Assembly: GCA_000091205.1 (NCBI GenBank)
Contig: AP006491.2
Source: Cyanidioschyzon merolae
Taxonomy: Eukaryota
DNA: 64,000 bases
Reading direction: 5' to 3' (one strand)
The notes beneath the pieces were generated by a model, which saw only the letters and a program-made list of their open reading frames with translations, did no database searches and had not been told where the DNA came from. The position numbers and the translations under genes are program-made. Within the stretch, counting starts at the first letter, position 1. Every line of letters begins with the position of its first letter. This document shows, in pieces, positions 18,490 through 50,332 of this stretch.

Positions 18490-19816
18490 ATCCTTTTTGT
18501 AGTTACCTGGGTCTAAAATCGAAGGCTTGAACGAGATGCCCTATGGATGCGCGGTAGCTGCTATCATCTTTGGAGGAGACGGCTTCCCTTTTCTAATCAT
18601 CACGACGTTACACAAGCTTGGGCCCATTTCTTTCGTCGAAAATGGGGCCTGGATCGTTCCAGCGATGGATCCGCGCAACGCGAAGGCACCAAAGACAGAA
18701 ATTAATGGTAAACTGCGAACGGGTATACTGGATTAATCTGCTGCCCGGGGGGTTCCGTGTAAATTACATAGCACGTACGCGTGGTGGGCCTCATGCTCAG
18801 TAACTTTCGCGAAACTTCTCTCGGGCGCGATGCGGTTTCCAATCAATACCCTCGAATCAGTATTGTTTCGAGTCGTGACGGATTGAAGCATCCCCTGCGC
18901 TTTTCCCCCGAGCGATCGCAAGCAATGATTCACGGAATTCCCTGGCAAGAGCTCCACGAGATGCTTTTTTGCTCTAGGAGCACATGGTGCCGGATTGAAT
19001 TACCTGAGACTTATCTTGGCATGGTAGCCCTACCCTCCAAGGTAGCTACTGTCAGCCAACTCAGATACTAAAAAGCGAGGCATCTCGTTCAGATATCTGC
19101 TCACGCGCGTCGAACCGGACTGTGGGGATTTCGTGAGCTTTCCTGGCGCGTTTACCTCAGCCATAGGCATTTGCTGTAGTCACTGGAACCGAGGGCACAC
19201 TCGAGGTCTCATGCAGAATATCGCTTGGCGCTGGTATATTACCAAATCATATGCAGAGAATTAATGATTTGAGCGTATTGCACAAAACCGCTGTTCAACG
19301 AAAGAGAGGAGATTCATTTCGTGTAAAGCGGGCGAACGGAGACTCTTAAAGCCGGAACGGGATCGACGACATCAGATTTGCACGCGCGCTTCGGGTCCGA
19401 AGCTGAACGTGCGCGACTCCCGACAAGAGGCCCCGTCCATTTTTTTACCTCTGGAAGATTTACACTGACTATGGATCTCCCGTGGCGCGATTTGTGTTTG
19501 CATCCGGAAAAACGATCATTTTTCCACACTATATCATCACGTCCTGTCGCCCGCCACCCACATTTTCCAGACAGAGACACCGTTCATATTGCTTCCTCAG
19601 TAGAGCACCAAACTGTTGTGAGTACCGAAATTAGCGCCTAAAATGCCAGGGTAGACGCCCCAACGAGACGGAACGGCTTTGCCTTACCCTCATGGGCATC
19701 GGCCTCAGAGGCCACGTCCATGAGCGGTCGCAATCGCCACTTATGTGGAGCGTAGCGCACGCTTGCTGCACGAATCCCGGACTTCTTACAAGTGTGGCGC
19801 ATGGAAAAGTTGGCAG

Positions 19817-24811: not shown

Positions 24812-25238
24812 AAAAACTCTAGTATCCGAGGTCGATTTCCTTCAAGTCAATGCGTTCCGGTTCGTCGTCTTATGCGCAAGTTGTGGAAGCTACGTGCTGT
24901 ATTCCGTGTTGCCGCATTTAGGTACGCATTCGCATCCAGAGCGCTCTTTGATGCGAACCGGTCCGCAATATGCAGCGCACATGGCAAGGACTCACACCGT
25001 CAAAGCACGCCGAGCTTCGCACATGAAACTTTTCGAAAGCTGGGAAAGATAATTTGCTCGTCGGTTACCGGACGGGCATCCAGAAGAGACGTATCGACCT
25101 TGTCGAGACATCAAAGGTTTTAGGTTTCTCGTTGCAGCGTCAAGTCGCGCGGACACAAATCCAAGTTTCTTAAGATGATCATCGAGCGGTCGAGGTGGTG
25201 CTCTGTGAGAATAAAGCACATCGCTCGCATCGGTGCTC

Positions 25239-30419: not shown

Positions 30420-32041
30420 TGTCACTGGAGAGCTCCGTGTCTATGCGCTCAATCATGTATGTCGAAGGAAACGGGTTCTGGTTGGTGGCCCTTTCACAAT
30501 AACTGAGATTGCCGAGACTTTGCACGCCCAGAGCGGAACTCAGGTTCCAGCGTATAGTTTTCGAGACCAGGAACTATGGAATATGCTGCCAGCCTGCTCA
30601 AGTAGTCCGACGAGGAGATGTCGATGCCAGAATTGAGAGCCTTTCACGGTAAATGTATGGCGAAGTCTCATTTACGAGTGCAGCTCTAAAGCCGTGGTGG
30701 AGCGATTCAGCGGGCTAAGCCAGAGGCTTCCATACGAAGATGGGTCGCTCCACAAGGAATCGGTCGACGACTGATCCTCGGAACGCACACAACATTGGAG
30801 AATCCCGAAGAGCACCATCACTCAGGAGGCCCAGGAGTGAATTGTGCGATGCGCTCAGCCAGCCGACATCGTTCTGGTGACCAGGCAAACGCACATCCCG
30901 CATCTGTCTGCCCTGAAAACTCAATCCCCAAGACCACTGCCGACGACATATGGTGAGTTGCTATGCACTCATGGCCCTTTCTGACAGCATGCCACGGACT
31001 TGGCAAACATCATGCGAAGGGTAACCTTTGCAGGATTTGCCGCTTGCCACCGAATACGGCAAACATGTCGAAACCAAGTGCTAAGGATATCTGTGGTAAA
31101 ATGCAGTGCTGTTCTGTGCTCTGGCACAGACTATTATAGGTGAAATCTGAACCGAAGTTTCTGCGACCTTTCTTCGAATAGAATGACCCAGCACCGCTGG
31201 TTCACTCAAGCCCAAAAGCGCAGAGCTTTTTGTGACCTGCAAGGAGATTTGGTGCGTTTCTGGGAGGCAAACCATGTACACATATTTGCCCAAAACATGT
31301 ATATGCATTTACACAACTTTACGTCCATAGACACATGTACACGGACACACGAGAATATCCGCATCTGCACGAAAGTTCACGCACACGTGCGCGACTAGAG
31401 GCATATACATACATAAATGCGGACGCAGCGATATACGCAAACACGCACTGCCTGAGGGACTATAGAAAACTTGGTTCTCTAGCCATAAACAACCGCATGC
31501 AACACCAATACTCGAAAGTAGTTCTTCAGCAGCGCAATGAACATGTCCAGGACGTATGAAAAAGTGCATGGCGATCTCTCCCGCGTCTATCGAGTACAGC
31601 AGATGAGTTGAAAGGCTTCCTTGTTTTCCACAGCGCCTCCGAAGCACAGACCAATGGCAGCGAAAACTGTTTCCAGGCGTCGCATGAGAGAGTCTCAAGA
31701 CAAGTACCGTCGGGAAGGGCCAACGCATCAGTTGACTTATACAACCGCGAGCACTATCCACTTGAATGCGAGATGTTCAGTTCGTCTTTGAGACATAACA
31801 TCCTGAACATTAAGTTTAAAATCGATAGCAAACAGGACCCAATGAAGCCTCTCCACATATGCTCGCGACCAGTTAGCCACGAAGCCCATGTCACAGACGT
31901 GAAATCTTTCAGAGCTGGTATGCAAAAGAATGACAAAACCTGGTTTGACGGAGCCATCGGACCAGCAGGAATGTCTTCGATTGGACAGATGTGATGTGCG
32001 TGTCGGGCATACTGTGTGGCACACATTCATATAGCAGCTCC

Positions 32042-34432
32042 ATCGTTCACCAATTGCCCAGGAGAAGGTTCCCATTACATACATCTTTGTAGTGCTCCAG
32101 CCTTTCCGGTTCGCTGACCCGTGCTACACCAGCGACTCGCCCAGGGCGGATATCCAATGCCCGCCCACCTGACCACCGATTCGTATTCATCGCAACGCAT
32201 CAGCTTCCCAGCACAATACCTCCACTGAGCACTAGAGGATTCCCTCAAGAGTTCGCTCGACACAATGCCGCGGGACGCTCCGAACGCTCCCGGCATTTCC
32301 GTAAGTTGATCGAGGCGCTCAGGTCTGGGTGCAGCAAGTGCATGCGCACTTGTTGCGGATCGAGCCGCGGCATAGCAAGTCTCCTATCTTCGATGGCCTC
32401 GTCAACTGACGCCCGGTCAGTTTGCCGTTGACCAGCCCGTGCATCCGACACGCTTCTACGCTGTTCCTCTCTACCAGCTCCAGCGTGCACCCCTGCCTGT
32501 GATGCGCGTACATCGCCCTGTTCGCATTGACAGCAATAGTGCAGAATCGACTCGTGCACTCGTTGCACGCCGCCGTCGAAGGCACGGGAGTACAGCCTGT
32601 GCGCAGCACTGCGCGTCGAGCGCCACAGGCTACCGCCAAACGACGCGAATTGTCGATCATCTCCCTCTGCTCTCCATTGAAGAAGTGAGCTGGTGCGCGC
32701 TCGTGGTTTCATCGCACCGAGCTGGTTGGCGATCTCAATGCGGTCTCATGAAAACCTGCCAGGGATAGCCCACGTGAGCCAGATACACGCTCTTGTACGC
32801 TCTGTGAGTGGCGCGCACAACGCATCCCGCTCAACTCGTTCAGGTGCTCAGAGCGCCATCATCGGGTCTGACGCCGCTATTCCACCCGCTGGCATGCCGC
32901 CTGGCGTCCATCACGCCCGACTCCAGATAATACAGAGCCATGGAAAAACTTGAGCAGCCTCATGTGCTTTCCATTCACTTCGTAGCGTCTGAGCGCTTCA
33001 CCCAGAGGTACGGCGATGTCCTTGAGGTTGATAGACCGGAGATTCACACCCGCCACGACGCTTGTCTCCTTCTCTCGGTTGAACTGTCGCAAAGCACCCT
33101 CTTTGCTCGATTCAAGCCTCCGTTTCACAAAGTGTGGGCAAATGGATATTCAGTGTGATCTTGACCCTCGGATAATTTCCCCCGGGTGCCCTCCCGGGTC
33201 CTCTTGTCATACGGATTCTGCTGTTCTGTAACCAACGGAATTTTCTCCATCTCCTAATGTTGGCGCGGTGCTATAGACGTGGACCCTATATCGCATGCCC
33301 GCTTTTCTTCCTCGGGGTTCAGAGGCACTGGATGGCCGCCGGCACTGAGACTTGCGTTTTCTGTGTATGTATCTCCAAGTCTTCGAGCGCTCTTCCTCAC
33401 CTGCTCTGTCGCGGGCACGCTCACGCACCGTAGTGCACCTGTCCGCCCCCTTGGTTTCACACGCGATCGGAGAAGCGGGAGTGCGGTTCAGGCCTGGTGA
33501 AGCAAGAGAACGAGTCGTCGTAGGACGGTGCTGCGGATGCAAACGAAGCGTCTATGGATCCGTGAAAGTAGAGACGGCGTTTGACGAAACAGAAGTCGCC
33601 TTCGGCTGGGTGCAACCAAAGAGCCTAGGTTGGAACGAGGGACAGCTCAACGCCAATCTCAATTGCAGACGCCCTGACCGCGTTTGACCGATGGAAAAGC
33701 GGCACTGCCGAAGAGCAGTGCAGAAGAATTCGGTACTGGGAGCTCACGAACCGCTTCGATGAGGAAATGGACCATTGAACGATCCTGTCTGTTTGGTGAT
33801 TTGAGGGCGATCCCAACTGAATCCGGGGGCGAGGCGCATGTCGTCACCGTACGCGCCTGTGCCATATTTACGACCAGCGGTGATCCGCTGTTTGAGCACC
33901 CATATCGAGGTCGACCATTTCGCTCGGATGATACCTCATCGAGTGAAACGGAGACCGGCCCGTTCTGTACTAACCGTGCGCGTTACAGCATGAGATCGGT
34001 AGCGCGTTATTCAACGCACGACGGTCTCCCGAAGAAGAGCGCTTTTTGCTCTGTCCATCCGTGTCTCTTGGTGGCCATTGTATCGAGGGCACGGAAGCTA
34101 CACATCCTGTTGGTTCGTTAGGAACGTTTCCGAGAGCACGTATGGAGTGGATTGGATTGACTGGGAGACAATTTTGTGTACCGAGTTTGATCGTTTCCGT
34201 CGTGATGCCCAGAACGCAGAATAAGTAGTATGAGGAGTGCGGCTCATGTACCAGCTCACCGTAGAACAACTGACTTGAGCAAGTAAGGCCGTGTGTCGGA
34301 AGCTGGCAGTCACAGCATAAAGCATTTCCGCGATCTTTCTCCGATCCACGAGATACGTTCCTCTTGGTGAATACCTGCGCGAAGAGAACAAAAGAGGGTG
34401 TGCTTGTAAAGATATCCTAGAACGTACTGCTC
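32042..34432 (-). repeat. IR2 left arm (2.39 kb), degenerate RT-like (non-LTR retroelement?) sequence
   Basis: It is the reverse complement of 38153-40542. Boundaries were read directly: atcgttcaccaattgccc at 32042 corresponds to gggcaattggtgaacgat ending at 40542, and gaacgtactgct ending at ~34432 corresponds to agcagtacgttc at ~38153. The ORF translations of the two arms differ at only a few residues. Confidence 0.9.
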
Positions 34433-34808
34433 TGCATACGGCATTTCGCTTGGGCTACTACTAACTGCGAGAGGCTTGCTGTCGGATGCGCGCTTTAGTG
34501 CGCTGCCCATGCAGAAAAGCTAAAAGACTGTATTCGCTCTTTACAGAGCTGACTGCTGCTCCTCGTGTGGTTCGTGGACCCTCTCGCTTCTCGGGCACGA
34601 GTGTCTGCAGGCCGCGCGTTGCACGTACCGAGAACAGAAAGCAGAACTGCTCGTTTGAGACGCTAGGCGCGGCAGGGAAACGAAAACAGTCGGCACTGTC
34701 CTGTGGTAGTCCCTGCTCCAGGGACTTTTGGCGGTGGCTCTTGAGCCAGTCCACAAACACTGAGCGTTAGCTACGAGAAAAAAGTGTGTTCTGGAAAGCC
34801 GGTGTAAA

Positions 34809-35372
34809 ATGGCGGAGCATCGAAAGCGCAAGCCGACGAAGTGTCTGCGGAATCTTCTCCTCACTGGAACTCCGGGAACCGGCAAATCTACAGTTGCTGC
34901 GAAGTTTTGTGCGAGAATGCGGTTGAACGTACCTGCAAACGACTGGCCTGTTCATATAAACGTCTCTGAACTGATCAAGGAGAACCCGTCGCGGTTCGCT
35001 GAGGAGTTTGATAGCGAACGCGACTGCTTCGTTATCAACGAAGACGCCGTAGTTGAGCACCTAGAGCCCATAGTGCAAAAGTGTAATGTGGTCTTAGAGC
35101 ACCATTCCAGTGACTGGTTCCCGGAACGCTGGTTTTCCCGAGTTGTGGTCCTGGCCAGCGCGACTGATGTACTGTATCGACGACTCGAGGCGAGAGGATA
35201 CACGACGGAAAAAGTGCAAGAAAACGTAGAAGCAGAAATCATGCAAGTTTGTGCAGATGAAGCGATGACGAGTTATGACCGCAAGATTGTTGACATTTAC
35301 GAGAACAATACTGAGGACGATATGGAGCGAATCGTAGGGAACCTCTGCGAATGGTGGTTGATCAGAAGTTGA
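34809..35372 (+). CDS. AK6: Adenylate kinase isoenzyme 6 (AK6/Fap7/hCINAP)
   Basis: The P-loop is NLLLTGTPGTGKST. The size (187 aa) and layout fit the AK6 family. Confidence 0.85.
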   Translation: MAEHRKRKPTKCLRNLLLTGTPGTGKSTVAAKFCARMRLNVPANDWPVHINVSELIKENPSRFAEEFDSERDCFVINEDAVVEHLEPIVQKCNVVLEHHSSDWFPERWFSRVVVLASATDVLYRRLEARGYTTEKVQENVEAEIMQVCADEAMTSYDRKIVDIYENNTEDDMERIVGNLCEWWLIRS

Positions 35373-36846
35373 TCTGTCGACAAGCAGCAACCTGCTGCTC
35401 ACTCGGGCAATATGGGCACTTGAATCTTGTGTTGCCCCTGGGCAGGCGGTTCACTGTTTCTTTGCAGAGCACGTGGCCACAGGGGAGCAAGTACGGCGGA
35501 TTCGTTGGAGTGCTCTGCTCTCTGGAAACTGGGCAGACGAATATAGAGTGGTATTTGTACTTCTTGCCCAGGTCTATCTCAACAGGAAGTTCTTCCCGTT
35601 GTGTCCAGGATTCACGCGTTGCGAGCAGTCGAGTAGCGCGCATCAAAACTGGCAGTGCTATCGTTCCGCACGCAACAACGCTGTACAGGGGACTCTCCTC
35701 GCTTAGATCGAGATGTGCCCAGAAACAACGCCGAAAGGATTGCTCGGCGTCATCGGATAGCGCAGAGGTAAAAAATGAGGCATATGGAGATTTTGCGATA
35801 CGCGATACGAAGGCAAAGCAACCCATAAGTTGCTGAATTTCCTTAGTCTGGGAACGCTGGAAACGAGCAAAATGCTGGCGGGCGTATGCCAGGGCCTCTG
35901 GTAGTCGCCTTTCCTGTAGATAATTGACGAATCGCAAACGATGAAGTTTGAATTCCAGTTCACGTAGTTTTTCGGCAAGCGCTTGACGTCCAGCGTTCGT
36001 GGGTACAGACGGGGTAGCGCTGTGCGGTATGTATGTCGAGTCCTGCATCCTTTGCGCCGCTGAGCTCTCCGAGGCGCCGTCCTGGCTATCGCTGCTTCGC
36101 TCTATCCAGGAAGAGACCCGCTGTGTCCAGAGAATAGCAGGCTCAAGCGTTCCGTGGCGAATATCGTTCAAAATAGCGTACAAATCCCTGAAAGGGAGTC
36201 GATACGTGTCCTCAAAGCTTTGGCCGGACTCTCTAGCGAAGGAGTCCGCGATATCGAAGTGACCTTCTCGATAGAGGTGCTCACCGATTGCTCGTTCAAG
36301 AAGTGTTTTCTCCAGCGGTTGAACATTGCATAGTTGAGAGATCTGTGGGTCAAAACAATTTTCCCCGCTTTTCGTGTACTTGGTAATTGCAGCTTTCAAC
36401 TCCTTCTCTCGTACAGACAGAGTCTCGAAGAGAGCCAAAACTTGTTGCTGAAACTCTGCCAACAGCAACTTGCGTGCTTCTACAGATGTCGTAGGCGACA
36501 GTATGGCGACTTGGAAGCGATCCAGAGCATCCTTCAGGTTCTGGCACGCGTCAAAACTGGAGCCCGAAAGTTTCTTCTGTTTCGCGACCAGCCGCACCAG
36601 GTCCGCCGCAACACTCACAAGTCCAGCGCCGCGTTCTTTTGGCAACTGGCCGCTCATCAGAGCCTGTGATGTCTCGGTGCCAGACATGTCGCCTCCTGGG
36701 GGCCTTTTCCACAAGCGCCGACACGAGAGTAACGACCTCGTATACCAGCACAGGAACCGTTCCAGGACACGCACTCGATCTGCTTCGTCTGTTGATGAGT
36801 CGCAGTCGATCGCGGCCGTCGCCCCTGTTGCGGCCCCCAGCAGCAA
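35362..36846 (-). CDS. RMD5: RMD5/GID2-type CTLH-complex E3 ligase subunit (LisH-CTLH-CRA plus degenerate RING)
   Basis: A LisH/CTLH-like region is present (LERAIGEHLYREGHFDIADSFARESG, LNDIRHGTLEPAILW). The C-terminus FVCPVSREQSTPTNPPYLLPCGHVLCKETVNRLPRGNTRFKCPYCPSEQ is collinear with RMD5. It overlaps the AK6 3' end by 11 bp. Confidence 0.8.
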   Translation of the reverse strand: MLLGAATGATAAIDCDSSTDEADRVRVLERFLCWYTRSLLSCRRLWKRPPGGDMSGTETSQALMSGQLPKERGAGLVSVAADLVRLVAKQKKLSGSSFDACQNLKDALDRFQVAILSPTTSVEARKLLLAEFQQQVLALFETLSVREKELKAAITKYTKSGENCFDPQISQLCNVQPLEKTLLERAIGEHLYREGHFDIADSFARESGQSFEDTYRLPFRDLYAILNDIRHGTLEPAILWTQRVSSWIERSSDSQDGASESSAAQRMQDSTYIPHSATPSVPTNAGRQALAEKLRELEFKLHRLRFVNYLQERRLPEALAYARQHFARFQRSQTKEIQQLMGCFAFVSRIAKSPYASFFTSALSDDAEQSFRRCFWAHLDLSEESPLYSVVACGTIALPVLMRATRLLATRESWTQREELPVEIDLGKKYKYHSIFVCPVSREQSTPTNPPYLLPCGHVLCKETVNRLPRGNTRFKCPYCPSEQQVAACRQINF

Positions 36847-37189: not shown

Positions 37190-38150
37190 TTAGACGCCTT
37201 CAGCCGTGGTCAGTGCATGTCGATGGTGCCGTGGTGACTGGGAGCAATCCGCCATGGTGGCTGATAATTGCGCAAAACCCCGCTCAATACGGAGCAAAAT
37301 ACGTCTGGCGCTCGAATCCGCACCGTCACCACAGATATAGAGCCCGTTGGCAACAAGCGAGTCGCGATTATGTCCCACGTTTGGACTTGGTTGCATCGCG
37401 CCTGCGGTTAATGTGCATGCTTGCAGCTATTGCCGCGTTTGCGCCGGGCATGCGTGCCCGCCTGAGGCTTCCCCTCGTTATGCATTTCCAAAGCGCACTC
37501 GGGATTGCGCAGCTGCTACTTCAAGCACACACGAGCCCGAGGACGGCCGCCGCCATAGCATAGAGAAGTACCGCTGTTCGTGAATGCCGCCAGAGAGGTC
37601 CCCGAATGCAGCCTCTCTTCTGAACGAGGATTACTGTTCGGGAAGTCCAAAAGGATGCTCCTCTTGGGGGCTTGTATCGAGCGTTCGCAAGATTTCTCCT
37701 GACACGCGCTCGGAGGACAGCAATGCAACACCGGCCCGAGTGGTCAGCGATCTTTCAACTCCGGGGGCACTTTCGCTCTACCTACCAAACTGTCGATGGT
37801 CTGGACGCATGAATAAGCTGCTAGATTCCGGACTTTACGACGCAAAACAACAGGTTTGCGTCATGGTACAGAGGTGCGCCCTCGGTAGAGGTGCCTGAAG
37901 GACCCATTCCATGCCAGGCTGAACACCAGAACGATACGGCGCAGAAACAACCATCACGCGTTCAGATGATGCTGGTTAGATTCAGGAAGCCAGAAGTACC
38001 CACATCTGGGAAGCGGCTTGAGCTCCTTTGGACAGAGCTGCGTATGCTTTACTGGCAAGTGGGTCAATTAGAGTCCAGCCGAGCCAGTGACTCTCCAGCA
38101 GGACGTGCACACGATGCTGATTTCCGGTTTGTCGGTACGCGTTACATTCA
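37190..38150 (-). pseudogene. Fragment of an FAD-dependent oxidoreductase-like gene (COG2509-like?), with in-frame stops, cut off by IR2 right arm
   Basis: A single minus frame reads ...GVALLSSERVSGEILRTLDTSPQEEHPFGLPEQ*...DSLVANGLYICGDGADSSARRILLRIERGF. The GLYxxGDGA terminal FAD motif is present, and the upstream part is xGHSARD-like. There are about 5 in-frame stops. The expected N-terminal dinucleotide-binding part would lie beyond 38152, where the repeat arm begins. Confidence 0.3.
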
Positions 38151-38152
38151 AA

Positions 38153-40542
38153 GCAGTACGTTCTAGGATATCTTTACAAGCACACCCTCTTTTATTCTCT
38201 TCGCGCAGGTATTCACCAAGAGGAACGTATCTCGTGGATCGGAGAAAGATCGCGGAAATGCTTTATGCTGTGACTGCCAGCTTCCGACACACGGCCTTAC
38301 TTGCTCAAGTCAGTTGTTCTACGGTGAGCTGGTACATGGGCCGCACTCCTCATACTACTTATTCTGCGTTCTGGACATCACGACGGAAACGACCAAACTC
38401 GGTACACAAAATTGTCTCCCAGTCAATCCAATCCACTCCATACGTGCTCTCGGAAACGTTCCTAACGAACCAACAGGATGTGTAGCTTCCGTGCCCTCGA
38501 TACCAATGGCCACCAAGAGACACGGATGGACAGAGCAAAAAGCGCTCTTCTTCGGGAGACCGTCGTGCGTTGAATAACGTGCTACCGATCTCATGCTGTA
38601 ACGCGCACGGTTAGTACAGAACGGGCCGGTCTCCGTTTCACTCGATGAGGTATCATCCGAGCGAAATGGTCGACCTCGATATGGGTGCTCAAACAGCGGA
38701 TCACCGCTGGTCGTAAATATGGCACAGGCGCGTACGGTGACAACATGCGCCTCGCCCCCGGATTCAGTTGGGATCGCCCTCAAATCACCAAACAGACAGG
38801 ATCGTTCAATGGTCCATTTCCTCATCGAAGCGGTTCGTGAGCTCCCAGTACCGAATTCTTCTGCACTGCTCTTCGGCAGTGCCGCTTTTCCATCGGTCAA
38901 ACGCGGTCAGAGCGTATGCAATTGAGATTGGCGTTGAGCTGTCCCTCGTTCCAACTTAGGCTCTTTGGTTGCACCCAGCCGAAGGCGACTTCTGTTTCGT
39001 CAAACGCCGTCTCTACTTTCACGGATCCATAGACGCTTCGTTTGCATCCGCAACACCGTCCTACGACGACTCGTTCTCTTGCTTCACCAGGCCTGAACCG
39101 CACTCCCGCTTCTCCGATCGCGTGTGAAACCAAGGGGGCGGACAGGTGCACTACGGTGCGTGAGCGTGCCCGCGACAGAGCAGGTGAGGAAGAGCGCTCG
39201 AAGACTTGGAGATACATACACAGAAAACGCAAGTCTCAGTGCCGGCGGCCATCCAGTGCCTCTGAACCCCGAGGAAGAAAAGCGGGCATGCGATATAGGG
39301 TCCACGTCTATAGCACCGCGCCAACATTAGGAGATGGAGAAAATTCCGTTGGTTACAGAACAGCAGAATCCGTATGACAAGAGGACCCGGGAGGGCACCA
39401 GGGGGGAATTATCCGAGGGTCAAGATCACACTGAATATCCATTTGCCCACACTTTGTGAAACGGAGGCTTGAATCGAGCAAAGAGGGTGCTTTGCGACAG
39501 TTCAACCGAGAGAAGGAGACAAGCGTCGTGGCGGGTGTGAATCTCCGGTCTATCAACCTCAAGGACATCGCCGTACCTCTGGGTGAAGCGCTCAGACGCT
39601 ACGAAGTGAATGGAAAGCACATGAGGCTGCTCAAGTTTTTCCATGGCTCTGTGTTATCTGGAGTCGGGCGTGATGGACGCCAGGCGGCATGCCAGCGGGT
39701 GGAATAGCGGCGTCAGACCCGATGATGGCGCTCTGAGCACCTGAACGAGTTGAGCGGGATGCGTTGTGCGCGCCACTCACAGAGCGTACAAGAGCGTGTA
39801 TCTGGCTCATGTGGGCTATCCCTGGCAGGTTTCCATGAGACCGCATTGAGATCGCCAACCAGCGCGGTGCGATGAAACCACGAGCGCGCACCAGCTCACT
39901 TCTTCAATGGAGAGCAGAGGGAGATGATCGACAATTCGCGTCGTTTGGCGGTAGCCTGTGGCGCTCGACGCGCAGTGCTGCGCACAGGCTGTACTCCCGT
40001 GCCTTCGACGGCGGCGTGCAACGAGTGCACGAGTCGATTCTGCACTATTGCTGTCAATGCGAACAGGGCGATGTACGCGCATCACAGGCAGGGGTGCACG
40101 CTGGAGCTGGTAGAGAGGAACAGCGTAGAAGCGTGTCGGATGCACGGGCTGGTCAACGGCAAACTGACCGGGCGTCAGTTGACGAGGCCATCGAAGATAG
40201 GAGACTTGCTATGCCGCGGCTCGATCCGCAACAAGTGCACATGCACTTGCTGCACCCAGACCTGAGCGCCTCGATCAACTTACGGAAATGCCGGGAGCGT
40301 TCGGAGCGTCCCGCGGCATTGTGTCGAGCGAACTCTTGAGGGAATCCTTTAGTGCTCAGTGGAGGTATTGTGCTGGGAAGCTGATGCGTTGCAATGAATA
40401 TGAATCGGTGGTCAGGTGGGCGGGCATTGGATATCTGCCCTGGGCGAGTCGCTGGTGTAGCACGGGTCAGCGAACCGGAAAGGCTGGAGCACTACAAAGA
40501 TGTATGTAATGGGAACCTTCTCCTGGGCAATTGGTGAACGAT
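38153..40542 (+). repeat. IR2 right arm (2.39 kb), degenerate RT-like sequence
   Basis: The plus-strand frames give, in order, EQQNPYDKRTREGTRG (~39360; QxGFxxGR-like), VVAGVNLRSINLKDIAVP (~39520; xxDxxKAFDxV-like) and GWNSGVRPDDGALS (~39690; GVRQGDPLSP-like). There are many stops. The assignment is weak. Confidence 0.4.
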
Positions 40543-40749
40543 AGAGGTGTTATATCATTGGATACTAGTAAGAATACTCGGGATATAACGAGAGCGTTTG
40601 GTAGCATTGCTACAACGCAGGATCGGAGTCCTGGTTATGCATTGAAATATTAAATAACTCTCAGCGGAAACCTCCGAGGGCGTTTTCAAATCAAGAGGGA
40701 AAACGGTTCGCTCGGAGTCTACACCTGTGTGACACTAATACAGAAAACT

Positions 40750-42281: not shown

Positions 42282-43706
42282 ATGAAGGTTCCATTCTGGC
42301 TATTTGCACTTATGGTTGCTTTGGTTTCGTTCAACGGGTGCAATATAGCGAAACCCGCTCAGTCTTGCCTTGGCTCGGGGCTCGCAGGCTGCTCGGCGCA
42401 GTTGTATTCTGGGAACCGGAAGGGTTGGTTCAGCGTATCCGGCTCCGTACAGGATACAATATTTACTCAGAATGAGCTTGCATCAAGCTTGGAGAGACTC
42501 GTCAGCCACATAATAGAACCTTTCCGAAATGCAACAGCGGAGGAGCTTCGCCACAGACTACGCACACTGTTCGAGCGCAAGACGTATCGCGTAACCCCGA
42601 ACGGTGCACGCAAAGCCGAAGGTTGTGTCGTCTGGTCGTGGCAGGGAGGAAACCTTACGTTCAACGCACCGACAGAGACGGAAACGATGATGCACCGCAC
42701 GAAACCTTTCTGGTACAATCGCTTACGCTGGACGTGGGAGCTGTTTGAAGCGATAAAAATGCCCAGAGACGACTTTGAGATAGCGCAGTGCCTGCATGAC
42801 TGTGTTCAGACTGTTCGAAAGGAGCCGCAGTTCGCCAAAATGCCTCGGTATCCCGAACCTGGACCGATTCCAATTCTCAGTCTCATCCAGTGCTGCGGCA
42901 TTAGCGATGATATTCCCGCACCAGTTTTTGAATCTGGCAGACCTGGCCCGAGAACGATTTTCTCAACTGGTCTTCGCGACTGGGATGTTGCTTGCGCGCT
43001 CCAAGCTGCTTCTGCTTTACCGTGGGCGTTTAGACTGCCCAAGGCAGTCTTCCGCGGCTCCGCTCGAGAATCTCTAGAGGAAACCAGACTTGCGACCGTC
43101 TCTGGGCGGAGAGGAATCCACGGACGCAGAGGGTCGAACGCGTATGGCCGGCGAGCCCTGGCAGAGCATGGCCGCCGACACCCAGCATTGCTGGATGTAC
43201 TTGTCACAGAATCCGGGGGCAACAGAAGTGCCGGCGGCTTTATGTCTGTCCGGAAGTTGGTGAACTACCGCTACTCTGTGCATGCTGAAGGCAACTGTGG
43301 CTGGGCAGACCGCTTATGGTGGCAGCTACACGCTCCGCAAGTGCTGCTAAAGCAGCGATCACCGTGCGGTCTGTACTTCGAACCCCTGATGAAGCCATAC
43401 AGAGATCACATCCCTGTCTCTGGGTCATTTGACGACCTCAGTCGCAAAGTAAAGTGGCTCCAGCGCCACGAGTCGGATGCTCTCGTAATGGCGACGAATG
43501 CAATGAGATTCGCGGAGGCGTACCTCGTTAGACGGAGCATACTCAAATACTTTGAGATGGTCCTAAACCAGTACGCACAAATTTGGCGACATCATTCTTA
43601 TGGAGATCGCGGGCACTTCCAATCAGGAGGTGGTGGCGCTGAATGCCTTCGACCTCGTTTCGACTTTTGGTTCTTAGAAGAAAAAAGGGATGCAGATGCG
43701 GGATAG
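42282..43706 (+). CDS. CAP10-domain glycosyltransferase (GT90, POGLUT/KDELC-like), secreted/ER
   Basis: The N-terminal signal is MKVPFWLFALMVALVSFNGC. The CAP10 core is AVFRGSARE...YRYSVHAEGNCGWADRLWWQLHAPQVLLKQ...YFEPLMKPYRDHIPVSGSFDDLSRKVKWL. Confidence 0.8.
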   Translation: MKVPFWLFALMVALVSFNGCNIAKPAQSCLGSGLAGCSAQLYSGNRKGWFSVSGSVQDTIFTQNELASSLERLVSHIIEPFRNATAEELRHRLRTLFERKTYRVTPNGARKAEGCVVWSWQGGNLTFNAPTETETMMHRTKPFWYNRLRWTWELFEAIKMPRDDFEIAQCLHDCVQTVRKEPQFAKMPRYPEPGPIPILSLIQCCGISDDIPAPVFESGRPGPRTIFSTGLRDWDVACALQAASALPWAFRLPKAVFRGSARESLEETRLATVSGRRGIHGRRGSNAYGRRALAEHGRRHPALLDVLVTESGGNRSAGGFMSVRKLVNYRYSVHAEGNCGWADRLWWQLHAPQVLLKQRSPCGLYFEPLMKPYRDHIPVSGSFDDLSRKVKWLQRHESDALVMATNAMRFAEAYLVRRSILKYFEMVLNQYAQIWRHHSYGDRGHFQSGGGGAECLRPRFDFWFLEEKRDADAG

Positions 43707-44593: not shown

Positions 44594-44989
44594 CTACGTG
44601 CAGGTCGCTACCCCCGTAAAAGTCGAGGTTGTCGTACCACCTGTTCCACAGGTAAAGCGGTACAGCAACCGACCTGCTTCCGCGCACTCGAGCACCAAGT
44701 TTCCATTCCCAGTCGTACCGGACGCACGAAGGAGTTCATTCAGATCAAACCGAGTAGTTTGTGAACGAATAGTCGCCAGGTTTTGGTCGTTCTGTTCCAA
44801 TGCAGACACGTGCGCCCGGAGTTGGGAAACAACAGCCCGCAACTCTGCGTTCTCAGCTGACGCTTTCCGCACAGCAACATCTAAAGAACTAGCCACCGTG
44901 CCAAAGCAGGTCCCGAAAGATCCTACAAAAAGACTTATCCCAATAAGTATGACGAGAGCCTGCCAAGGCTTGAGACTGAAAGTTTGCAT
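44594..44989 (-). CDS. Small signal-anchor/coiled-coil protein, paralogue 1 (novel family)
   Basis: The start was chosen at MQTFSLKPWQALVILIGISLFVGSFG (131 aa). The C-terminus is LVLECAEAGRLLYRFTCGTGGTTTSTFTGVATCT. It is a paralogue of 45278..45712. Confidence 0.5.
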   Translation of the reverse strand: MQTFSLKPWQALVILIGISLFVGSFGTCFGTVASSLDVAVRKASAENAELRAVVSQLRAHVSALEQNDQNLATIRSQTTRFDLNELLRASGTTGNGNLVLECAEAGRLLYRFTCGTGGTTTSTFTGVATCT

Positions 44990-45277
44990 CTTCGAACAAT
45001 ACTTGTCTTTACAAAACAGAGTAGGAAAAAGAATTTTAATGAGATGCAAGCGGCGTAAAGGTGCGTGTTGCGCGCCGTCACGCGGAGCATCCGTTGATCC
45101 CAGTGTCACGAATCGACGACACCAGTGCAACAAACAAGCGACGGCGGCCGGCGGCAACAACACATATCGATGGAAAAATTGCCACTACGTGCTGGAGATC
45201 ACTGGAGGGATCGGATCGCATCGATCGATCCGTGTCTGCTCTGCTCACCATCGCATCTAGCGTTGTTTCTCTCAAAA

Positions 45278-45712
45278 ATGACGCAACGGAGTTACCACCT
45301 TACGCCAGTATTCGTATGCTGCTTCTGGATTATGGCGTGGTTCGTTTGCATATTTACGTTAGGAGCGGTGGAGGCTTTGGGACGCTTTTCTCTGGGAAGT
45401 ACAAGGGAGGGCGTGCTTGCGGCACTTGTAGAGGACAATATTCGCCTGCGAAATGAAGCACGCATTCTGCTCAACCGCTTGAACCACTTTGAGGCTTCGA
45501 ACAGGCGTCAGATTTTGGTTTCCCACGGCAGCGTGCCAGGAGTCTATCCGTATGGAGGTATTTTCAATACCACCGTGCGTGCGAGCACGGGCAGCGGCGG
45601 AGCGGCGACTTCCGTGATTGAGTGCGCCGCGACCGAGAGAGTCCTGTACCGTTTTTCATGCCCAGCAGACGTTGTAGCCGCCACGACGATGACCGGTGTG
45701 ATTGACTGTTAA
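45278..45712 (+). CDS. Small signal-anchor/coiled-coil protein, paralogue 2 (novel family)
   Basis: The start was chosen at MTQRSYHLTPVFVCCFWIMAWFVCIF (144 aa). The C-terminus is SVIECAATERVLYRFSCPADVVAATTMTGVIDC. Confidence 0.5.
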   Translation: MTQRSYHLTPVFVCCFWIMAWFVCIFTLGAVEALGRFSLGSTREGVLAALVEDNIRLRNEARILLNRLNHFEASNRRQILVSHGSVPGVYPYGGIFNTTVRASTGSGGAATSVIECAATERVLYRFSCPADVVAATTMTGVIDC

Positions 45713-45731: not shown

Positions 45732-46352
45732 TCACTGCGTTTCGAAAAAGTCAAGTGTTTGCCAACCGAGACGATCCCGAATTCGTTCCAAACGTTTTCT
45801 GTTGGACCCAAAGTCACCAAGCGGTTGATGGAAAGGATATATATAGGTGACCTTCTGTGACCTCGATCGGTAAAGTACAAGCTTCTCCTCAGGTCGGAGC
45901 AGAAACTCGATGTCGTCCTCGCCGCCCGGTGGAAATACACTCGGTGCAGTCGCATGTAGATAGAAACCATCCACTTCGCGGACAGCGACGCCAGGCTCCG
46001 CTCTTACCGCCGCCTCGAGTGCCGACCAGGCTTCTCGAGGACTATCAGTGACTGTAGCATACGACCACGGCGCGCCGTACTTGACGGGACTCCCGATTGC
46101 GGAAGAGGAGACACAGTTTTCTTCGCTGCCACAGCTCCCGAGCGACTTGATCTGCACCGCCGAGAAAATGCCACCATCGGCACTGGAAACTGGCACTCGA
46201 AAAGCCCCTTCAAGCGAAAGTGCAATCATGACAGCAGCGCAAGCTGACGATCGTCCCCAGGGAGTAGCGGCCGTGGCCGCTAGTCGGAAGCTGCGCCAGC
46301 TCCTGTGCAGGGCGAAACGGCGAGTTCTGACCCTGGAATTGACCACAAACAT
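45732..46352 (-). CDS. DUF1499-domain protein with N-terminal targeting-like extension
   Basis: CGSEENCVSSSA...YGAPWSY...YLHATAPSVFPPGGEDDIEFLL...LYRSRSQ...GDFGSNRKRLERIRDRLGW is collinear with DUF1499 as recalled. The N-terminus is R/S/A-rich. Confidence 0.7.
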   Translation of the reverse strand: MFVVNSRVRTRRFALHRSWRSFRLAATAATPWGRSSACAAVMIALSLEGAFRVPVSSADGGIFSAVQIKSLGSCGSEENCVSSSAIGSPVKYGAPWSYATVTDSPREAWSALEAAVRAEPGVAVREVDGFYLHATAPSVFPPGGEDDIEFLLRPEEKLVLYRSRSQKVTYIYPFHQPLGDFGSNRKRLERIRDRLGWQTLDFFETQ

Positions 46353-46719: not shown

Positions 46720-47205
46720 TTAAGAATAGAAAATCCTAGGCTAAGTTATGGACTTGCAAGTCGCGAATCGAGGAAGGCCATCACCGCCGGCTGCCGACAG
46801 AAGAAAAAGCAAAAATCCTCTTCTCGCCGAACATCAAACGAAGAAAAGCAAGTGACGAAGAAGAAGAGCGGAGATATGCGAGAAAAGGCGTTCGTACGAC
46901 GGGGCGATGACGAGGCTGTAGTGGCATAGAGGTCGCGAACTCTAGGAATCTTTGCAATGGTACGTTCCACCAGCGGCAGCAAACGCATGCAGTTCGTGGA
47001 CCGAGACTTCAGCACCGCCATGAATATCAGACGATGTATGATGCTGAAGAAGAGAACTGAGGAGCTGACGCGATCCAACGTCGTGGTGCAGCCTCTCAGG
47101 CTCGAAGTGTGCCTGCGTAAACTGAAACCGATAGCAGTGGTCCGGTCACAAAAGTCTGGGAGACGTCTGCGCGTGGGTGTATCTGTATACACTCTATGGT
47201 CGTTG
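46720..47205 (+). pseudogene. X2-family TnpB/Fanzor-like relic (diverged solo copy)
   Basis: EKAFVRRGDDEAVVA*...MVRSTSGSKRMQFVDRDFSTAMNIRRCMML (motif at 46999-47037) is collinear with GTVFVEWNDDETVAEQ...GIGSKRMELVSRDLNAATNIRRCVVL. The 3' tail is also alignable at DNA level to 12179-12350. Confidence 0.55.
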
Positions 47206-48346: not shown

Positions 48347-50332
48347 TCAACAGGGAGCCCTTTTTCTCGTCAAGTCGGGGTCACTGCTATCTGCAGCATC
48401 CTGTGGAGTATATCGCCTGCGGAAAAATATCTCGAGTTCCCTTGTCGTGAGCTGGCGAAACGTTGGACGCCCATGCGGACACGTGCGAGGTGCTTTCGTT
48501 CGGAGCCATTGGTCCACCAATGACTGCATCCTCTCTCGATCCAATTGCGTTCCGTTCTTCACCGCTGCCCTGCAGGCGAGAAGCGCTAAGCGATCCTCCA
48601 GACTGGATGCAGAACCGAGTGCTTGTAGCAGGAATTGCATCTTTCGCTCAGACTGCGACCTGGGGCAATCATTCTCAGGGTCTAGGAGTCCCGCTTCGAT
48701 GAACATTTGCGGGGCGCGTTCCACTTTCCATTCCAATGGACCGATCATGGTCATGTGGATGCCCAGGGATTCTCGCAGCTCCTCGACCTGAGCTTGAGCG
48801 AACAGACCTCGCATAATAATTGGTTCGCGGAGCTCGACAATATTACGCGCCAGAGACGTATACTGGTCCCTGTACTTTTCGTAGAGCACGCGTTCGTGTG
48901 CGGTATGCTGTTCAATAATCCAAATATCACCGCTCTCCATATTGGTGGCGATGATGTAGGTCTTACCAATCTGGGTCATGGCTTCGAGTCTGAGCAGCTG
49001 GTTACTTTGGGGTTCATCAGCGGCACCGTTTAAGGCGCCTTCTTCCATATCGATAAGTTTCCGAAGATAGGTCGATGCAAATAAGTCTGCGGCGGATACC
49101 TCTGATAGCGGCATCGAGAAGCAACGATCGATGCCCTCTCGAAGTTTCTGAAACCAGTACTCGGGGTCACGTAAACGCATCATAGTTTTCATCGGGTGAA
49201 TATTCCAATCGACATCTCTTCCAGGGCATCTTATGTGAATGAAGATTATCGGGAAGCGACCGGAAGGTAACGTGTGCTGCACATGGCTCAGCGCCGCGTT
49301 CACGAGGTCCGCGTTCTGTACAGCTCTACCGTTCACAGCCACAATGACCGCATCCGCCCGTGAGCGATGGTGCCCCCGGTCCGGATACCCGAGCACACAG
49401 AGGACTTGATCGCTAGCGAAAGCACCACACTCCTCAGGCGCAATTTCCATGATCTGACTAAACATGCGGATAAGGGCGTGCTTAGCTCGCTCTGTCTCCG
49501 ATTCCTCGTCAGAGAATTCAAGTTTGCCGTATAGGGTAAGAAGATTGCGTCCGCTATCTCGAACTCTCCAAGAAACGTTCGGATGGCATAAAGCCGTTGC
49601 GCGGACGAAGGATAGGAGCTGTTGCCGCAGCTGCCTCTTGTGCGGCATGGCGGAACGCCGCGGGGCAAACTGTTCGTCGCAAAAGAGACCAGTGACCTGG
49701 ACAATGGTTCCCTGGGGAAGGCCGACAGGCTCAACCGGTTTCGTTTCAACTTGTTGTGGGCTGTATTGAATCATGTAACCACAGGGGCTGGTCTCCCCTT
49801 TCGAGCGAACCTCAATACACGCACAGAGCTGGGATATTGCCCAGAGACCCTGACCTCGAAAGCCGAGTGTGTGCACCCGTCCAGCAACGAGCTGCTCCAG
49901 TGAGGCGAGCTTACTCGTCGCGTTCTGCTGAAGACAACGTTCAAGGTCATTTGGCCTCATCCCTCGTCCATTATCTCGTACGACGATATTGCCAGCATCA
50001 AAGTCGATGTCGATCTCCACCGCGGTGGCCTCCGCGTCCAGCGCGTTCTCGACGAGCTCTCGCACAGCAGCGACGGGGCTATCAATGACTTCGCCACTCG
50101 CTATTCGCTGAATGACCTCTGTAGGCAAGACGGAGATCCGCAAGGTCAACGGTACTGACCTCCTTGGGGATGTTCGTCGATAAACGGATCTCGGACAGAG
50201 CTTCAACGGCGTTGACGACCAAGGCTGCGCTGGGCTCAGAACAACCCGTCGTGATGATGCGTCGCTTTGCTGCAGCTTGCCCACGTTGCTCGAGATATGC
50301 TTTCTTCTGATGAAACAATATGATATGAACAT
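48347..50332 (-). CDS. MUTL: DNA mismatch repair protein MutL, bacterial-size, with N-terminal extension
   Basis: The GHKL ATPase region reads IASGEVIDSPVAAVRELVENALDAEAT and VRDNGRGM. The C-terminal endonuclease-type motif is EQHTAHERVLYE, and CPHGRPT is present. The ~590-aa core sits behind a ~70-aa S/R-rich leader. Confidence 0.9.
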   Translation of the reverse strand: MFISYCFIRRKHISSNVGKLQQSDASSRRVVLSPAQPWSSTPLKLCPRSVYRRTSPRRSVPLTLRISVLPTEVIQRIASGEVIDSPVAAVRELVENALDAEATAVEIDIDFDAGNIVVRDNGRGMRPNDLERCLQQNATSKLASLEQLVAGRVHTLGFRGQGLWAISQLCACIEVRSKGETSPCGYMIQYSPQQVETKPVEPVGLPQGTIVQVTGLFCDEQFAPRRSAMPHKRQLRQQLLSFVRATALCHPNVSWRVRDSGRNLLTLYGKLEFSDEESETERAKHALIRMFSQIMEIAPEECGAFASDQVLCVLGYPDRGHHRSRADAVIVAVNGRAVQNADLVNAALSHVQHTLPSGRFPIIFIHIRCPGRDVDWNIHPMKTMMRLRDPEYWFQKLREGIDRCFSMPLSEVSAADLFASTYLRKLIDMEEGALNGAADEPQSNQLLRLEAMTQIGKTYIIATNMESGDIWIIEQHTAHERVLYEKYRDQYTSLARNIVELREPIIMRGLFAQAQVEELRESLGIHMTMIGPLEWKVERAPQMFIEAGLLDPENDCPRSQSERKMQFLLQALGSASSLEDRLALLACRAAVKNGTQLDRERMQSLVDQWLRTKAPRTCPHGRPTFRQLTTRELEIFFRRRYTPQDAADSSDPDLTRKRAPC

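What the first reader, a model, noticed from the sequence alone, without database searches (positions are those of the whole stretch)
44594..45712. Divergent pair of small paralogous anchor/coiled-coil proteins with a shared Cys-containing C-terminal motif
Genes 44594..44989(-) and 45278..45712(+) share the same plan. Each has an N-terminal hydrophobic anchor (WQALVILIGISLFVGSFG and LTPVFVCCFWIMAWFVCIF). Each has a heptad-like helix (AENAELRAVVSQLRAHVSALEQNDQNL and EDNIRLRNEARILLNRLNHFEASNRRQ). Each ends in a conserved tail, LECAEAGRLLYRFTCGTGGTTTSTFTGVATCT and IECAATERVLYRFSCPADVVAATTMTGVIDC. They are transcribed head-to-head from a 288-bp spacer. I do not recognise the family.
Basis: seen in the sequence. 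Interest (0 to 1): 0.55.

Follow-up and report, generated by a model that had tools for sequence, protein, structure and literature searches.

The report
Diploid-specific paralogous secretory gene pair
Two small, related genes lying head-to-head in the red alga Cyanidioschyzon merolae are real, conserved only in its closest relatives, and switched on together in the walled diploid stage, so they probably encode a paired surface or cell-wall protein of a family nobody has described.

Summary
The window is Cyanidioschyzon merolae 10D chromosome 9. Gene A (44594..44989, -) is CMI166C, a "hypothetical protein". Gene B (45278..45712, +) is missing from the 2007 reference annotation and, by position, is CMX068C, added in 2026.

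The C-terminal ~48 residues are significantly similar (BLASTP E 3e-9; 0 of 2000 shuffles reach the score). Both genes are under purifying selection (dN/dS about 0.1-0.15). The divergent pair keeps its place between a GT90 and a DUF1499 gene in Cyanidioschyzon, Cyanidiococcus and Cyanidium.

Published RNA-seq shows both are co-expressed and strongly specific to the walled diploid phase, while flanking genes are not.

An exhaustive profile search of 1.84 billion proteins found the family only in Cyanidiales-like sequences. There is no Pfam, NCBIfam, PDB or fold match.

Each protein has:
- an N-terminal signal peptide or signal anchor;
- a 4-5 heptad helix with a polar residue at an aligned 'a' position;
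- a Gly/Ser/Thr linker;
- a small beta module with exactly three invariant Cys.

Flanking heptad positions are complementary between A and B but mismatched in homodimers.

Best reading, inferred: a co-regulated, disulfide-linked A-B coiled-coil hetero-oligomer at the surface or in the proteinaceous wall of diploid cells. It is a new orphan family of moderate interest.

The parts
44594..44989 (-). Gene A = CMI166C (BAM80047.1 / XP_005536333.1), 131 aa, annotated 'hypothetical protein'
   Evidence: Exact-sequence look-up; purifying selection and indel-free orthologues; diploid TPM about 300 against haploid 7-37
44900..44965 (-). A residues 9-30: N-terminal hydrophobic segment, either a signal peptide h-region or a signal anchor
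   Evidence: Uncharged run with max KD19 = 2.24. The Cyanidium orthologue is predicted SP(Sec/SPI); the C. merolae protein is not predicted SP and Phobius gives 0 TM
44792..44893 (-). A residues 33-66: amphipathic heptad helix with core A-L-V-A-N-L-V-L-V-L and Asn47 at an 'a' position
   Evidence: Heptad occupancy and a/d core listing; AF2 helix 7-78 at low confidence
44597..44740 (-). A residues 84-131: conserved C-terminal module N..LRAS-(G/S/T linker)-VLECA..GRLLYRFTC..T.TGV.TC with three invariant Cys (C102, C114, C130)
   Evidence: AF2 predicts 4 beta strands here at pLDDT about 65
44990..45277 (.). 288-bp spacer between the two start codons. It is the presumed bidirectional, diploid-phase promoter plus both 5' UTRs. 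Conserved blocks lie at 45105-45118 (GTCACGAATCGACG) and 45216-45232 (TCGCATCGATCGATCCG)
   Evidence: Spacer alignments of 4 and 6 lineages; co-expression of both genes while the flanking genes are not phase-specific. Motif function is not tested, and GCATCGA is not enriched in the window
45278..45712 (+). Gene B, 144 aa. It is absent from the 2007 NCBI annotation and by position equals CMX068C, one of 219 genes added in 2026
   Evidence: Only Logan/JGI predictions hold this exact protein. The order CMI166C-CMX068C-CMI167C appears in Data Set S8, with diploid TPM about 610 against haploid 4-18. Purifying selection
45299..45370 (+). B residues 8-31: N-terminal hydrophobic segment followed by A-V-E-A|L
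   Evidence: Phobius gives 1 TM for CMX068C; the Cyanidium orthologue is SP(Sec/SPI)
45395..45499 (+). B residues 40-74: heptad helix with core ..L-L-N-L-A-L-L-F and Asn54 at the 'a' position aligned with A Asn47
   Evidence: AF2 helix 8-74
45566..45709 (+). B residues 97-144: C-terminal module N..VRAS-(G/S/A linker)-VIECA..ERVLYRFSC..T.TGV.DC with three invariant Cys (C116, C128, C144)

Best explanation
A and B are an ancient pair of paralogues restricted to the Cyanidiales. They are driven from one short bidirectional promoter that is switched on in the cell-walled diploid phase. Each product enters the secretory pathway through its N-terminal hydrophobic segment, which is either cleaved after a small-residue site around residues 30-35 or retained as a type II anchor.

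The exposed part has three elements. First, a 4-5 heptad amphipathic helix with a buried polar residue at the same 'a' position in both proteins; this favours a parallel, in-register two-stranded coiled coil. Second, a flexible Gly/Ser/Thr linker. Third, a beta module of about 35 residues with three invariant cysteines. Because the number is odd, at least one thiol is free for an inter-chain bond.

The two proteins most likely pair with each other into a disulfide-stabilised hetero-oligomer. This would sit at the outer face of the plasma membrane or in the largely proteinaceous wall of diploid cells, as a structural or assembly component.

Shown: paralogy, purifying selection, conserved divergent synteny, co-expression, diploid specificity, heptad pattern, three invariant Cys, absence from all known families.

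Inferred: secretion, A-B pairing, disulfide linkage, wall or surface role.
For: Paralogy.

Real genes: dN/dS about 0.1-0.15 and no indels.

Conserved arrangement: GT90 - A - B - DUF1499 ... MutL is found in an L001 metagenome lineage, Cyanidiococcus yangmingshanensis (L002/L003), L004, and Cyanidium (L005, L007).

Expression (PMC13353863, Data Sets S8/S9):
- CMI166C: 2n 301/299/309 TPM against n 25/19/37 and 7.5/13/17.
- CMX068C: 2n 631/564/637 against n 18/18/14 and 4/5/6.
- Cyanidium orthologue g253: 772/750/776 against 8/5/3. Orthologue g254: 746/820/872 against 14/11/13.
- Neighbours CMI164C, CMI165C, CMI167C and CMI169C change less than 2-fold.

Secretion: SignalP-5 gives SP(Sec/SPI) for both Cyanidium orthologues.

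Coiled coil: heptad a/d occupancy and an aligned Asn at 'a'.

Cysteines: exactly 3 Cys after the hydrophobic run in all 13 family members.

Heterodimer complementarity, conserved in all six lineages: A g = V/I/L faces B e' = L, and B g = E faces A e' = R. Homodimers would pair V/I/L with R, or E with L. Totals are AB 3-4 attractive and 0 repulsive; AA 0-2 and 0; BB 2-4 and 0-2.

Wall context: the diploid is the walled phase, and one older report on a Cyanidium-type strain found the wall 50-55% protein. In these genera many secretory-protein genes are differentially expressed between the phases, and fasciclin-domain (FAS1) and lysyl oxidase genes are predominantly diploid.
Against: - There is no localisation or protein-level evidence. 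The Cyanidiococcus proteome table was truncated in the held copy.
- SignalP-5 does not call a signal peptide for either C. merolae protein.
- AF2 models have low confidence (pLDDT 64 and 60) and are monomers only.
- The g-e' argument rests on one to two heptads.
- Mature A and B have almost no Lys (1 and 0 in C. merolae), so they are unlikely substrates of the diploid-specific lysyl oxidase.
- Diploid-specific expression is also compatible with roles unrelated to the wall, such as the four-daughter division mode, hatching or signalling.
Confidence: 0.45

Rival explanations
1. The proteins are uncleaved type II membrane proteins (N-in, C-out) of the plasma membrane or ER/Golgi, with a coiled-coil stalk. 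They would act as membrane-wall tethers, or in the diploid-specific division and hatching programme, rather than as soluble wall components.
For: The hydrophobic runs are long, 16-26 uncharged residues with KD19 of 1.95-2.94. SignalP-5 is negative for both C. merolae proteins and Phobius gives 1 TM for CMX068C. AF2 draws one continuous helix from the hydrophobic segment into the heptad region. The diploid divides by forming four daughters inside a mother wall, unlike the haploid.
Against: Both Cyanidium orthologues are predicted cleaved Sec/SPI signal peptides with 0 TM. Small residues at -3/-1 follow the hydrophobic run in most orthologues: VCEA|, AVEA|, VQVRA|, TQAEA|, VGA|, AGDA|. The N-terminal 40 residues evolve much faster than the rest, with dN/dS of 0.33-0.76 against about 0.1, as signal peptides typically do.
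Confidence: 0.25
2. A and B are independent, subfunctionalised paralogues that each form homo-oligomers. The head-to-head arrangement would then be only the relic of an inverted tandem duplication sharing one promoter.
For: A homodimeric coiled coil is not excluded: AA has no repulsive g-e' pairs. The A and B tails have diverged to 43% identity, and each is highly conserved within its own type.
Against: Both copies and their orientation are retained in every lineage examined. Expression is near-equimolar in Cyanidium (about 766 against 813 TPM). The g/e' positions are complementary between A and B but mismatched within each type, in all six lineages.
Confidence: 0.15
3. They are precursors of small secreted signalling peptides. 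The conserved C-terminal Cys module would be released, for example near the invariant R-A-S/T motif, and would act as an autocrine or paracrine signal of the diploid phase.
For: The layout of signal peptide, pro-region and conserved Cys-containing C-terminal module resembles plant and animal cysteine-rich peptide precursors (general knowledge). The R-A-(S/T) motif is invariant or nearly so just upstream of the module.
Against: The 'pro-region' is itself conserved as a heptad helix under purifying selection. No dibasic or known processing site is present. Very high mRNA levels (300-870 TPM) suit a structural product better. There is no match to any peptide-hormone family.
Confidence: 0.08
4. 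One or both ORFs are chance ORFs or non-coding transcripts.
For: B is missing from the 2007 reference annotation. Both are short, and an antisense ORF of 220 aa overlaps A.
Against: dN/dS is about 0.1 with saturated synonymous sites. Orthologue lengths are exactly conserved among Cyanidioschyzon, Cyanidiococcus and the L001/L004 lineages (A 131 aa, B 144 aa), with Cyanidium slightly longer (144 and 146-147 aa). 23 columns are invariant across the six-sequence A/B alignment. Gene models exist in three annotated genomes.
Confidence: 0.01

Closest known systems
Diploid-phase secretory and cell-wall gene set of Cyanidiophyceae (fasciclin FAS1, lysyl oxidase, trefoil-like and cupin proteins; Hirooka et al. 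2026, PMC13353863)
   Same: Same organisms and same expression behaviour: high in walled diploids and nearly off in wall-less haploids. The Cyanidium orthologues are likewise predicted secretory.
   Different: A and B have no recognisable domain and are not discussed in the paper. They occur as a two-member divergent paralogue pair, and no homologue was detected among predicted Galdieria proteins, whereas FAS1 is shared with Galdieria.
Leucine-zipper-type parallel dimeric coiled coils with a buried Asn at an 'a' position (GCN4/bZIP zippers)
   Same: A heptad repeat of 4-5 turns with L/V at a/d positions and one conserved Asn at 'a'. In GCN4-type zippers this specifies parallel, in-register dimers (established knowledge; pattern shown).
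   Different: There is no basic DNA-binding region, and the proteins carry an N-terminal secretory signal and a Cys-containing beta tail. No Pfam bZIP hit was found. This is an analogy of mechanism only.
FtsB/FtsL/DivIC-type small bitopic proteins
   Same: Architecture only: about 100-140 aa, an N-terminal hydrophobic helix, an extracytoplasmic coiled coil and a short C-terminal beta segment. They are paralogue-like partners that form a heterodimer (recalled from general knowledge).
   Different: No sequence relationship: Pfam and NCBIfam scans were negative at E <= 0.1. The host is a eukaryote, there is no organelle targeting peptide, and the Cys motif is absent from FtsB/FtsL.
Bacterial GloVer tandem repeat (TIGR03803, 'choice-of-anchor tandem repeat GloVer-containing protein')
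   Same: A local motif G-x-ERVLYRF-xGG-DG-x-P resembles (G/E)R(L/V)LYRF-xC-G/P... in the A/B tail. The family profile hits three GloVer proteins at E 5e-5 to 9e-4. hhalign of the tail against GloVer units gives probability 91%, P 1e-6, over 21 columns.
   Different: The TIGR03803 model does not hit A or B at E <= 0.1. The match covers about 20 residues, and its significance is inflated by summing over 4-5 repeats. The Cys residues, coiled coil and single-copy nature have no GloVer counterpart.

Membership tests
Any Pfam-A / NCBIfam family | Score above the curated gathering cut-off of a family model | tested here: not met
   Pfam: the only hits for A are DUF2576 (14.9 bits against cut-off 27.4) and Rab11-FIP3 (13.9 against 31.9), and B has none. 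NCBIfam: nothing meaningful. PDB sequence search: best E 0.094.
GloVer repeat proteins (TIGR03803) | Match to the TIGR03803 model (cut-off 44 bits), normally as tandem repeats | tested here: not met
   P0057-59 score 167-303 bits; A and B give no hit at E <= 0.1. There is only a 21-column local profile-profile match.
GloVer repeat proteins (TIGR03803) | Tandem array of repeat units of about 50 residues | tested here: not met
   A and B each contain a single copy of the motif.
bZIP / GCN4-type leucine zipper | Heptad repeat with Leu at 'd' and a conserved Asn at 'a' | tested here: met
   a/d occupancy is 0.51/0.71. Asn is aligned at 'a' in 11 of 13 sequences, with Arg in Cyanidium A.
bZIP / GCN4-type leucine zipper | Basic DNA-binding region immediately N-terminal to the zipper, in a nuclear protein | tested here: not met
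   The zipper is preceded by a hydrophobic signal or anchor and a neutral segment. No bZIP Pfam hit.
FtsB/FtsL/DivIC (PF04977/PF04999) | Match to the family models | tested here: not met
   No hit at E <= 0.1.
Secretory (Sec/SPI) proteins | Cleavable N-terminal signal peptide | tested here: inconclusive
   Published SignalP-5 gives SP for both Cyanidium orthologues and none for the C. merolae proteins; Phobius gives TM 0 (A) and 1 (B). Own analysis: hydrophobic runs of 16-26 residues followed by small -3/-1 residues. No signal-peptide predictor was available here.
Cyanidialean diploid-phase-specific gene set (PMC13353863) | Significantly higher mRNA in 2n than in n cells, in more than one genus | tested here: met
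   From published tables, not recomputed. logFC is 3.7 and 4.8 for A and 5.5 and 7.1 for B in C. merolae. It is 7.6 and 6.3 in Cyanidium. FDR is about 0.

The most novel reading that the evidence does not exclude
A and B form an obligate, disulfide-locked coiled-coil heterodimer that is a core building or organising unit of the unique proton-tight, protein-rich wall of diploid Cyanidiales. Their C-terminal module would be a single beta-propeller-blade-like unit, distantly derived from bacterial GloVer repeats by horizontal transfer, which assembles into a larger array only through oligomerisation.
Probability: 0.08. Interest if true: 0.65.

Novelty: new variant of a known kind. Interest (0 to 1): 0.4.

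Why it matters
Cyanidiales live at pH 0.5-2, and their cellulose-free, largely proteinaceous diploid wall is chemically undefined. The sexual cycle and the walled diploid of C. merolae were described only in 2026.

This pair has several useful properties. It is highly expressed, strictly diploid-phase and lineage-restricted. It is driven from a compact conserved bidirectional promoter of about 290-340 bp. It is therefore (i) a concrete candidate for a wall or surface component that can now be tested by gene targeting in a tractable alga. It is also (ii) a ready-made, small diploid-specific bidirectional promoter for tools. Finally, (iii) gene B shows that short genes specific to one phase can be missed by a reference annotation based on ESTs and sequence similarity, as the 2007 gene set was. 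The pair does not by itself overturn anything known.

Tried and rejected
- Pfam, NCBIfam and PDB sequence searches for both proteins found nothing above noise.
- AF2 monomer models were low confidence: pLDDT 63.7 for A and 60.1 for B. Foldseek of model A against PDB had a best E of 0.56, so no fold assignment was possible. I ran no further search on such models.
- The exhaustive profile search gave only cyanidialean relatives. It also returned two giant coiled-coil proteins (P0054, P0055), which I treated as spurious heptad matches, and three GloVer repeat proteins.
- The GloVer lead was followed with NCBIfam and hhalign. I rejected it as membership and kept it as a weak local resemblance.
- The JGI metagenome scan returned only four loci identical to C. 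merolae.
- Literature searches for CMI166C and CMX068 found no relevant paper. The Plant Cell paper lists the genes only in supplementary tables.
- The Cyanidiococcus proteome and H3K27me3 values for the orthologues could not be read, because the stored table is truncated.
- A candidate shared cis-element, CG(C/A)ATCGA, is present in all six spacers. However, GCATCGA is not enriched in the window (19 observed against 14 expected), so I make no claim for it.
- I considered whether the neighbouring GT90 (CMI165C) is functionally linked. It is not phase-specific (logFC 0.7) and the whole block is collinear, so synteny carries no specific signal.
- A plastid or mitochondrial targeting reading was rejected. 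The hydrophobic core starts at residues 8-11 with no transit-peptide-like region.

Full report
**What is there**

The region has low ORF density and about 53% GC. An exact-sequence look-up places the window in Cyanidioschyzon merolae 10D, on an 810-kb chromosome record. The gene ids carry the CMI prefix, which I read as chromosome 9.

Gene A (44594..44989, minus strand, 131 aa) is CMI166C (BAM80047.1, XP_005536333.1), annotated 'hypothetical protein'. Its neighbours are:
- CMI165C, a GT90 glycosyltransferase, at 42282..43706;
- CMI167C, a DUF1499 protein, at 45732..46352;
- a MutL homologue, CMI169C, at 48347..50332.

Gene B (45278..45712, plus strand, 144 aa) has no NCBI accession; only Logan and JGI gene calls hold it. 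In the 2026 re-annotation, 219 genes were added from haploid and diploid RNA-seq. There a new gene, CMX068C, sits between CMI166C and CMI167C. B is the only conserved ORF in that interval, so B = CMX068C. This is an inference from position.

**Checking the observation**

All quoted peptides and coordinates are correct. The A-B similarity is real:
- BLASTP gives E 3e-9, with 21/49 identities over the C-terminus.
- The Smith-Waterman score is 95, against 29 +/- 4.8 for 2000 shuffles, none of which reaches it.
- tblastn finds no third copy in the window.

**Are they genes?**

Orthologues of both were found in five further lineages:
- a JGI hot-spring metagenome lineage (L001);
- Cyanidiococcus yangmingshanensis (L002, L003);
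- a Logan assembly close to Cyanidiococcus (L004);
- Cyanidium: L007 from GCA_026184775.1, which I take to be Cd. caldarium from its accession series, and the closely similar L005.

They always lie head-to-head between the GT90 gene and the DUF1499 gene.

Among the Cyanidioschyzon and Cyanidiococcus orthologues the proteins align without a single gap. Synonymous sites are saturated (pS 0.64-0.90) while pN is 0.19-0.36. Where dS is measurable, dN/dS is 0.10-0.15. The first 40 codons evolve several-fold faster than the rest. Chance ORFs are excluded.

**Transcription**

Hirooka et al. 2026 (PMC13353863, Data Sets S8 and S9) report the following TPM values.

| Gene | Diploid (2n) | Haploid MS1 Ha3 | Haploid 10D | logFC |
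|---|---|---|---|---|
| CMI166C (A) | 301/299/309 | 25/19/37 | 7.5/13/17 | 3.7 and 4.8 |
| CMX068C (B) | 631/564/637 | 18/18/14 | 4/5/6 | 5.5 and 7.1 |
| Cyanidium g253 (A orthologue) | 772/750/776 | 8/5/3 | - | 7.6 |
| Cyanidium g254 (B orthologue) | 746/820/872 | 14/11/13 | - | 6.3 |

The flanking genes CMI164C, 165C, 167C and 169C change less than 2-fold. The pair is therefore a co-regulated island specific to the diploid phase.

The paper's main text does not mention either gene. No other paper in the library does either.

**Anatomy**

All 13 family members share four elements.

1. *N-terminal hydrophobic run.* A short, mostly basic N-terminus is followed by 16-26 uncharged residues. The run usually ends in small residues at -3/-1 (VCEA|, AVEA|, VQVRA|, TQAEA|, VGA|, AGDA|).
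2. *Amphipathic helix.* It has a clean heptad pattern. Strong hydrophobics fill 51% of 'a' and 71% of 'd' positions, and at most 20% of the others. An Asn is aligned at one 'a' position in A and B; it is Arg in Cyanidium A.
3. *Linker.* A poorly conserved segment rich in Gly, Ser and Thr, beginning after an invariant N-x-x-(L/V)-R-A-(S/T) motif.
4. *C-terminal tail.* About 35 residues, V(L/I)EC(A/S)..(G/E)(R/K)(L/V)LYRF.C.......T.TGV..C. After the N-terminal hydrophobic run, the proteins hold exactly three Cys, all in this tail.

AF2 monomer models are of low confidence (pLDDT 63.7 and 60.1). They agree on one long helix followed by a small 4-5-stranded beta meander.

**Signal peptide or anchor?**

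This is unresolved. The published SignalP-5 runs call both Cyanidium orthologues Sec/SPI and both C. merolae proteins negative. Phobius gives 0 TM for A and 1 for B. I lean towards cleavage, for two reasons: the conserved small -3/-1 residues, and the fast evolution of the N-terminal 40 codons. Either way the helix and the Cys module face the lumen or the outside of the cell.

**Partnering**

In a parallel, in-register dimer, 'g' of one chain contacts the following 'e' of the other. In all six lineages A has V/I/L at one such 'g' and Arg at the following 'e'. B has Glu and Leu at the same places.

An A-B dimer therefore pairs hydrophobic with hydrophobic and Glu with Arg. A-A would pair V/I/L with Arg twice, and B-B would pair Glu with Leu twice.

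| Pairing | Attractive g-e' pairs | Repulsive g-e' pairs |
|---|---|---|
| A-B | 3-4 | 0 |
| A-A | 0-2 | 0 |
| B-B | 2-4 | 0-2 |

Three more observations point the same way: both copies are retained in every lineage, mRNA is near-equimolar in Cyanidium, and the Cys count is odd. Together these favour a disulfide-linked A-B hetero-oligomer. This is inference. No multimer prediction was possible with the tools.

**Function**

The diploid is the walled phase. One older report on a Cyanidium-type strain found the wall 50-55% protein, and these algae lack cellulose synthases. In these genera 35-50% of secretory-protein genes are differentially expressed between the phases, and the fasciclin-domain (FAS1) and lysyl oxidase genes are predominantly diploid.

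A highly expressed, diploid-only secretory pair is most simply a surface or wall component, or a wall-assembly factor. The mature proteins have almost no Lys. They are therefore unlikely substrates for the diploid lysyl oxidase, and any cross-linking would go through Cys.

The rivals are:
- retained type II anchors acting in tethering or in the four-daughter division and hatching programme;
- independent homo-oligomers;
- processed signalling peptides.

**Comparison with known families**

An exhaustive HMM search of 1.84 billion representative proteins found the family only in the lineages above. It also found one A-like gene on a short 70.7% GC contig from SRR31152685. Nothing was detected among predicted Galdieria proteins. 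Small unannotated ORFs there could have been missed.

There is no Pfam, NCBIfam, PDB-sequence or Foldseek match.

The only outside signal is a motif of about 20 residues (ERVLYRF-GG-DG) shared with bacterial GloVer repeats. The family profile hits three such proteins at E 5e-5 to 9e-4, and hhalign gives P 1e-6 over 21 columns. The TIGR03803 model does not recognise A or B, and the E-values are inflated by repeat summation. I keep this as a lead, not as membership.

The helix works like a GCN4-type zipper but lacks a basic region. The overall plan resembles FtsB/FtsL in architecture only.

**Verdict**

This is a real, transcribed, conserved paralogue pair of a previously undescribed protein family restricted to the Cyanidiales. 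One member is missing from the standard annotation. Expression is strictly tied to the diploid phase.

The mechanism proposed is a secreted or surface-anchored, disulfide-linked A-B coiled-coil complex of the diploid wall. It is plausible but untested. Interest is moderate: it is valuable to people working on cyanidiophyte life cycles and walls, but not surprising in kind.

Noticed in passing
window 6323-12369, 15894-18512, 23273-24817, 32024-34437, 38146-40560: There are several dispersed repeats, 95-100% identical and 0.3-2.1 kb long, in direct and inverted orientation. Examples are 32024-34080 against 38504-40560, and 9710-11128 against 17094-18512. Inverted pairs bracket an FtsH-type protease gene (12605-15016) and the AAA_18/CTLH-RING genes (34809-36846). 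ORFs inside them have no Pfam match. The relatives have much shorter intergenic regions here, so these look like C. merolae-specific repeat insertions.
   Followed up: partly
window 46854-47187: A diverged copy (about 72% identity) of the same repeat family lies between the DUF1499 gene and the MutL gene, about 1.1 kb downstream of gene B.
   Followed up: no
window 45170-45277: An in-frame ATG lies 36 codons upstream of B's start (MEKLPLRAG...). It gives the 180-aa gene calls seen in some metagenome predictions. Cyanidiococcus has no ATG in the corresponding upstream stretch, so it is probably 5' UTR or promoter. The DNA there is nevertheless partly conserved between lineages.
   Followed up: partly
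L006 (Logan SRR31152685 contig, 1479 bp, 70.7% GC): This contig carries an A-like gene in an unidentified high-GC organism. The likely true start is MLVRVATAAAV... The tail is NLVLECADVGRLLYRFTCPTGSSSDAAFTGVGTCE. The family may therefore extend beyond the three named genera.
   Followed up: partly
L005 16334-19595; L007 1-3188: In Cyanidium, four tandem fasciclin (FAS1) genes lie about 6 kb from the A/B pair, beyond the PFK gene. The 2026 paper reports fasciclin-domain (FAS1) genes as predominantly expressed in diploid cells. In the C. merolae window I did not identify fasciclin genes in the corresponding position.
   Followed up: no
L002/L003 9285-9719 (minus strand): The B orthologue is not among the called genes in either public Cyanidiococcus yangmingshanensis assembly (GCA_026122185.1, GCA_013995675.1), although the ORF is intact there. 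This is the same annotation gap as in C. merolae 10D.
   Followed up: yes
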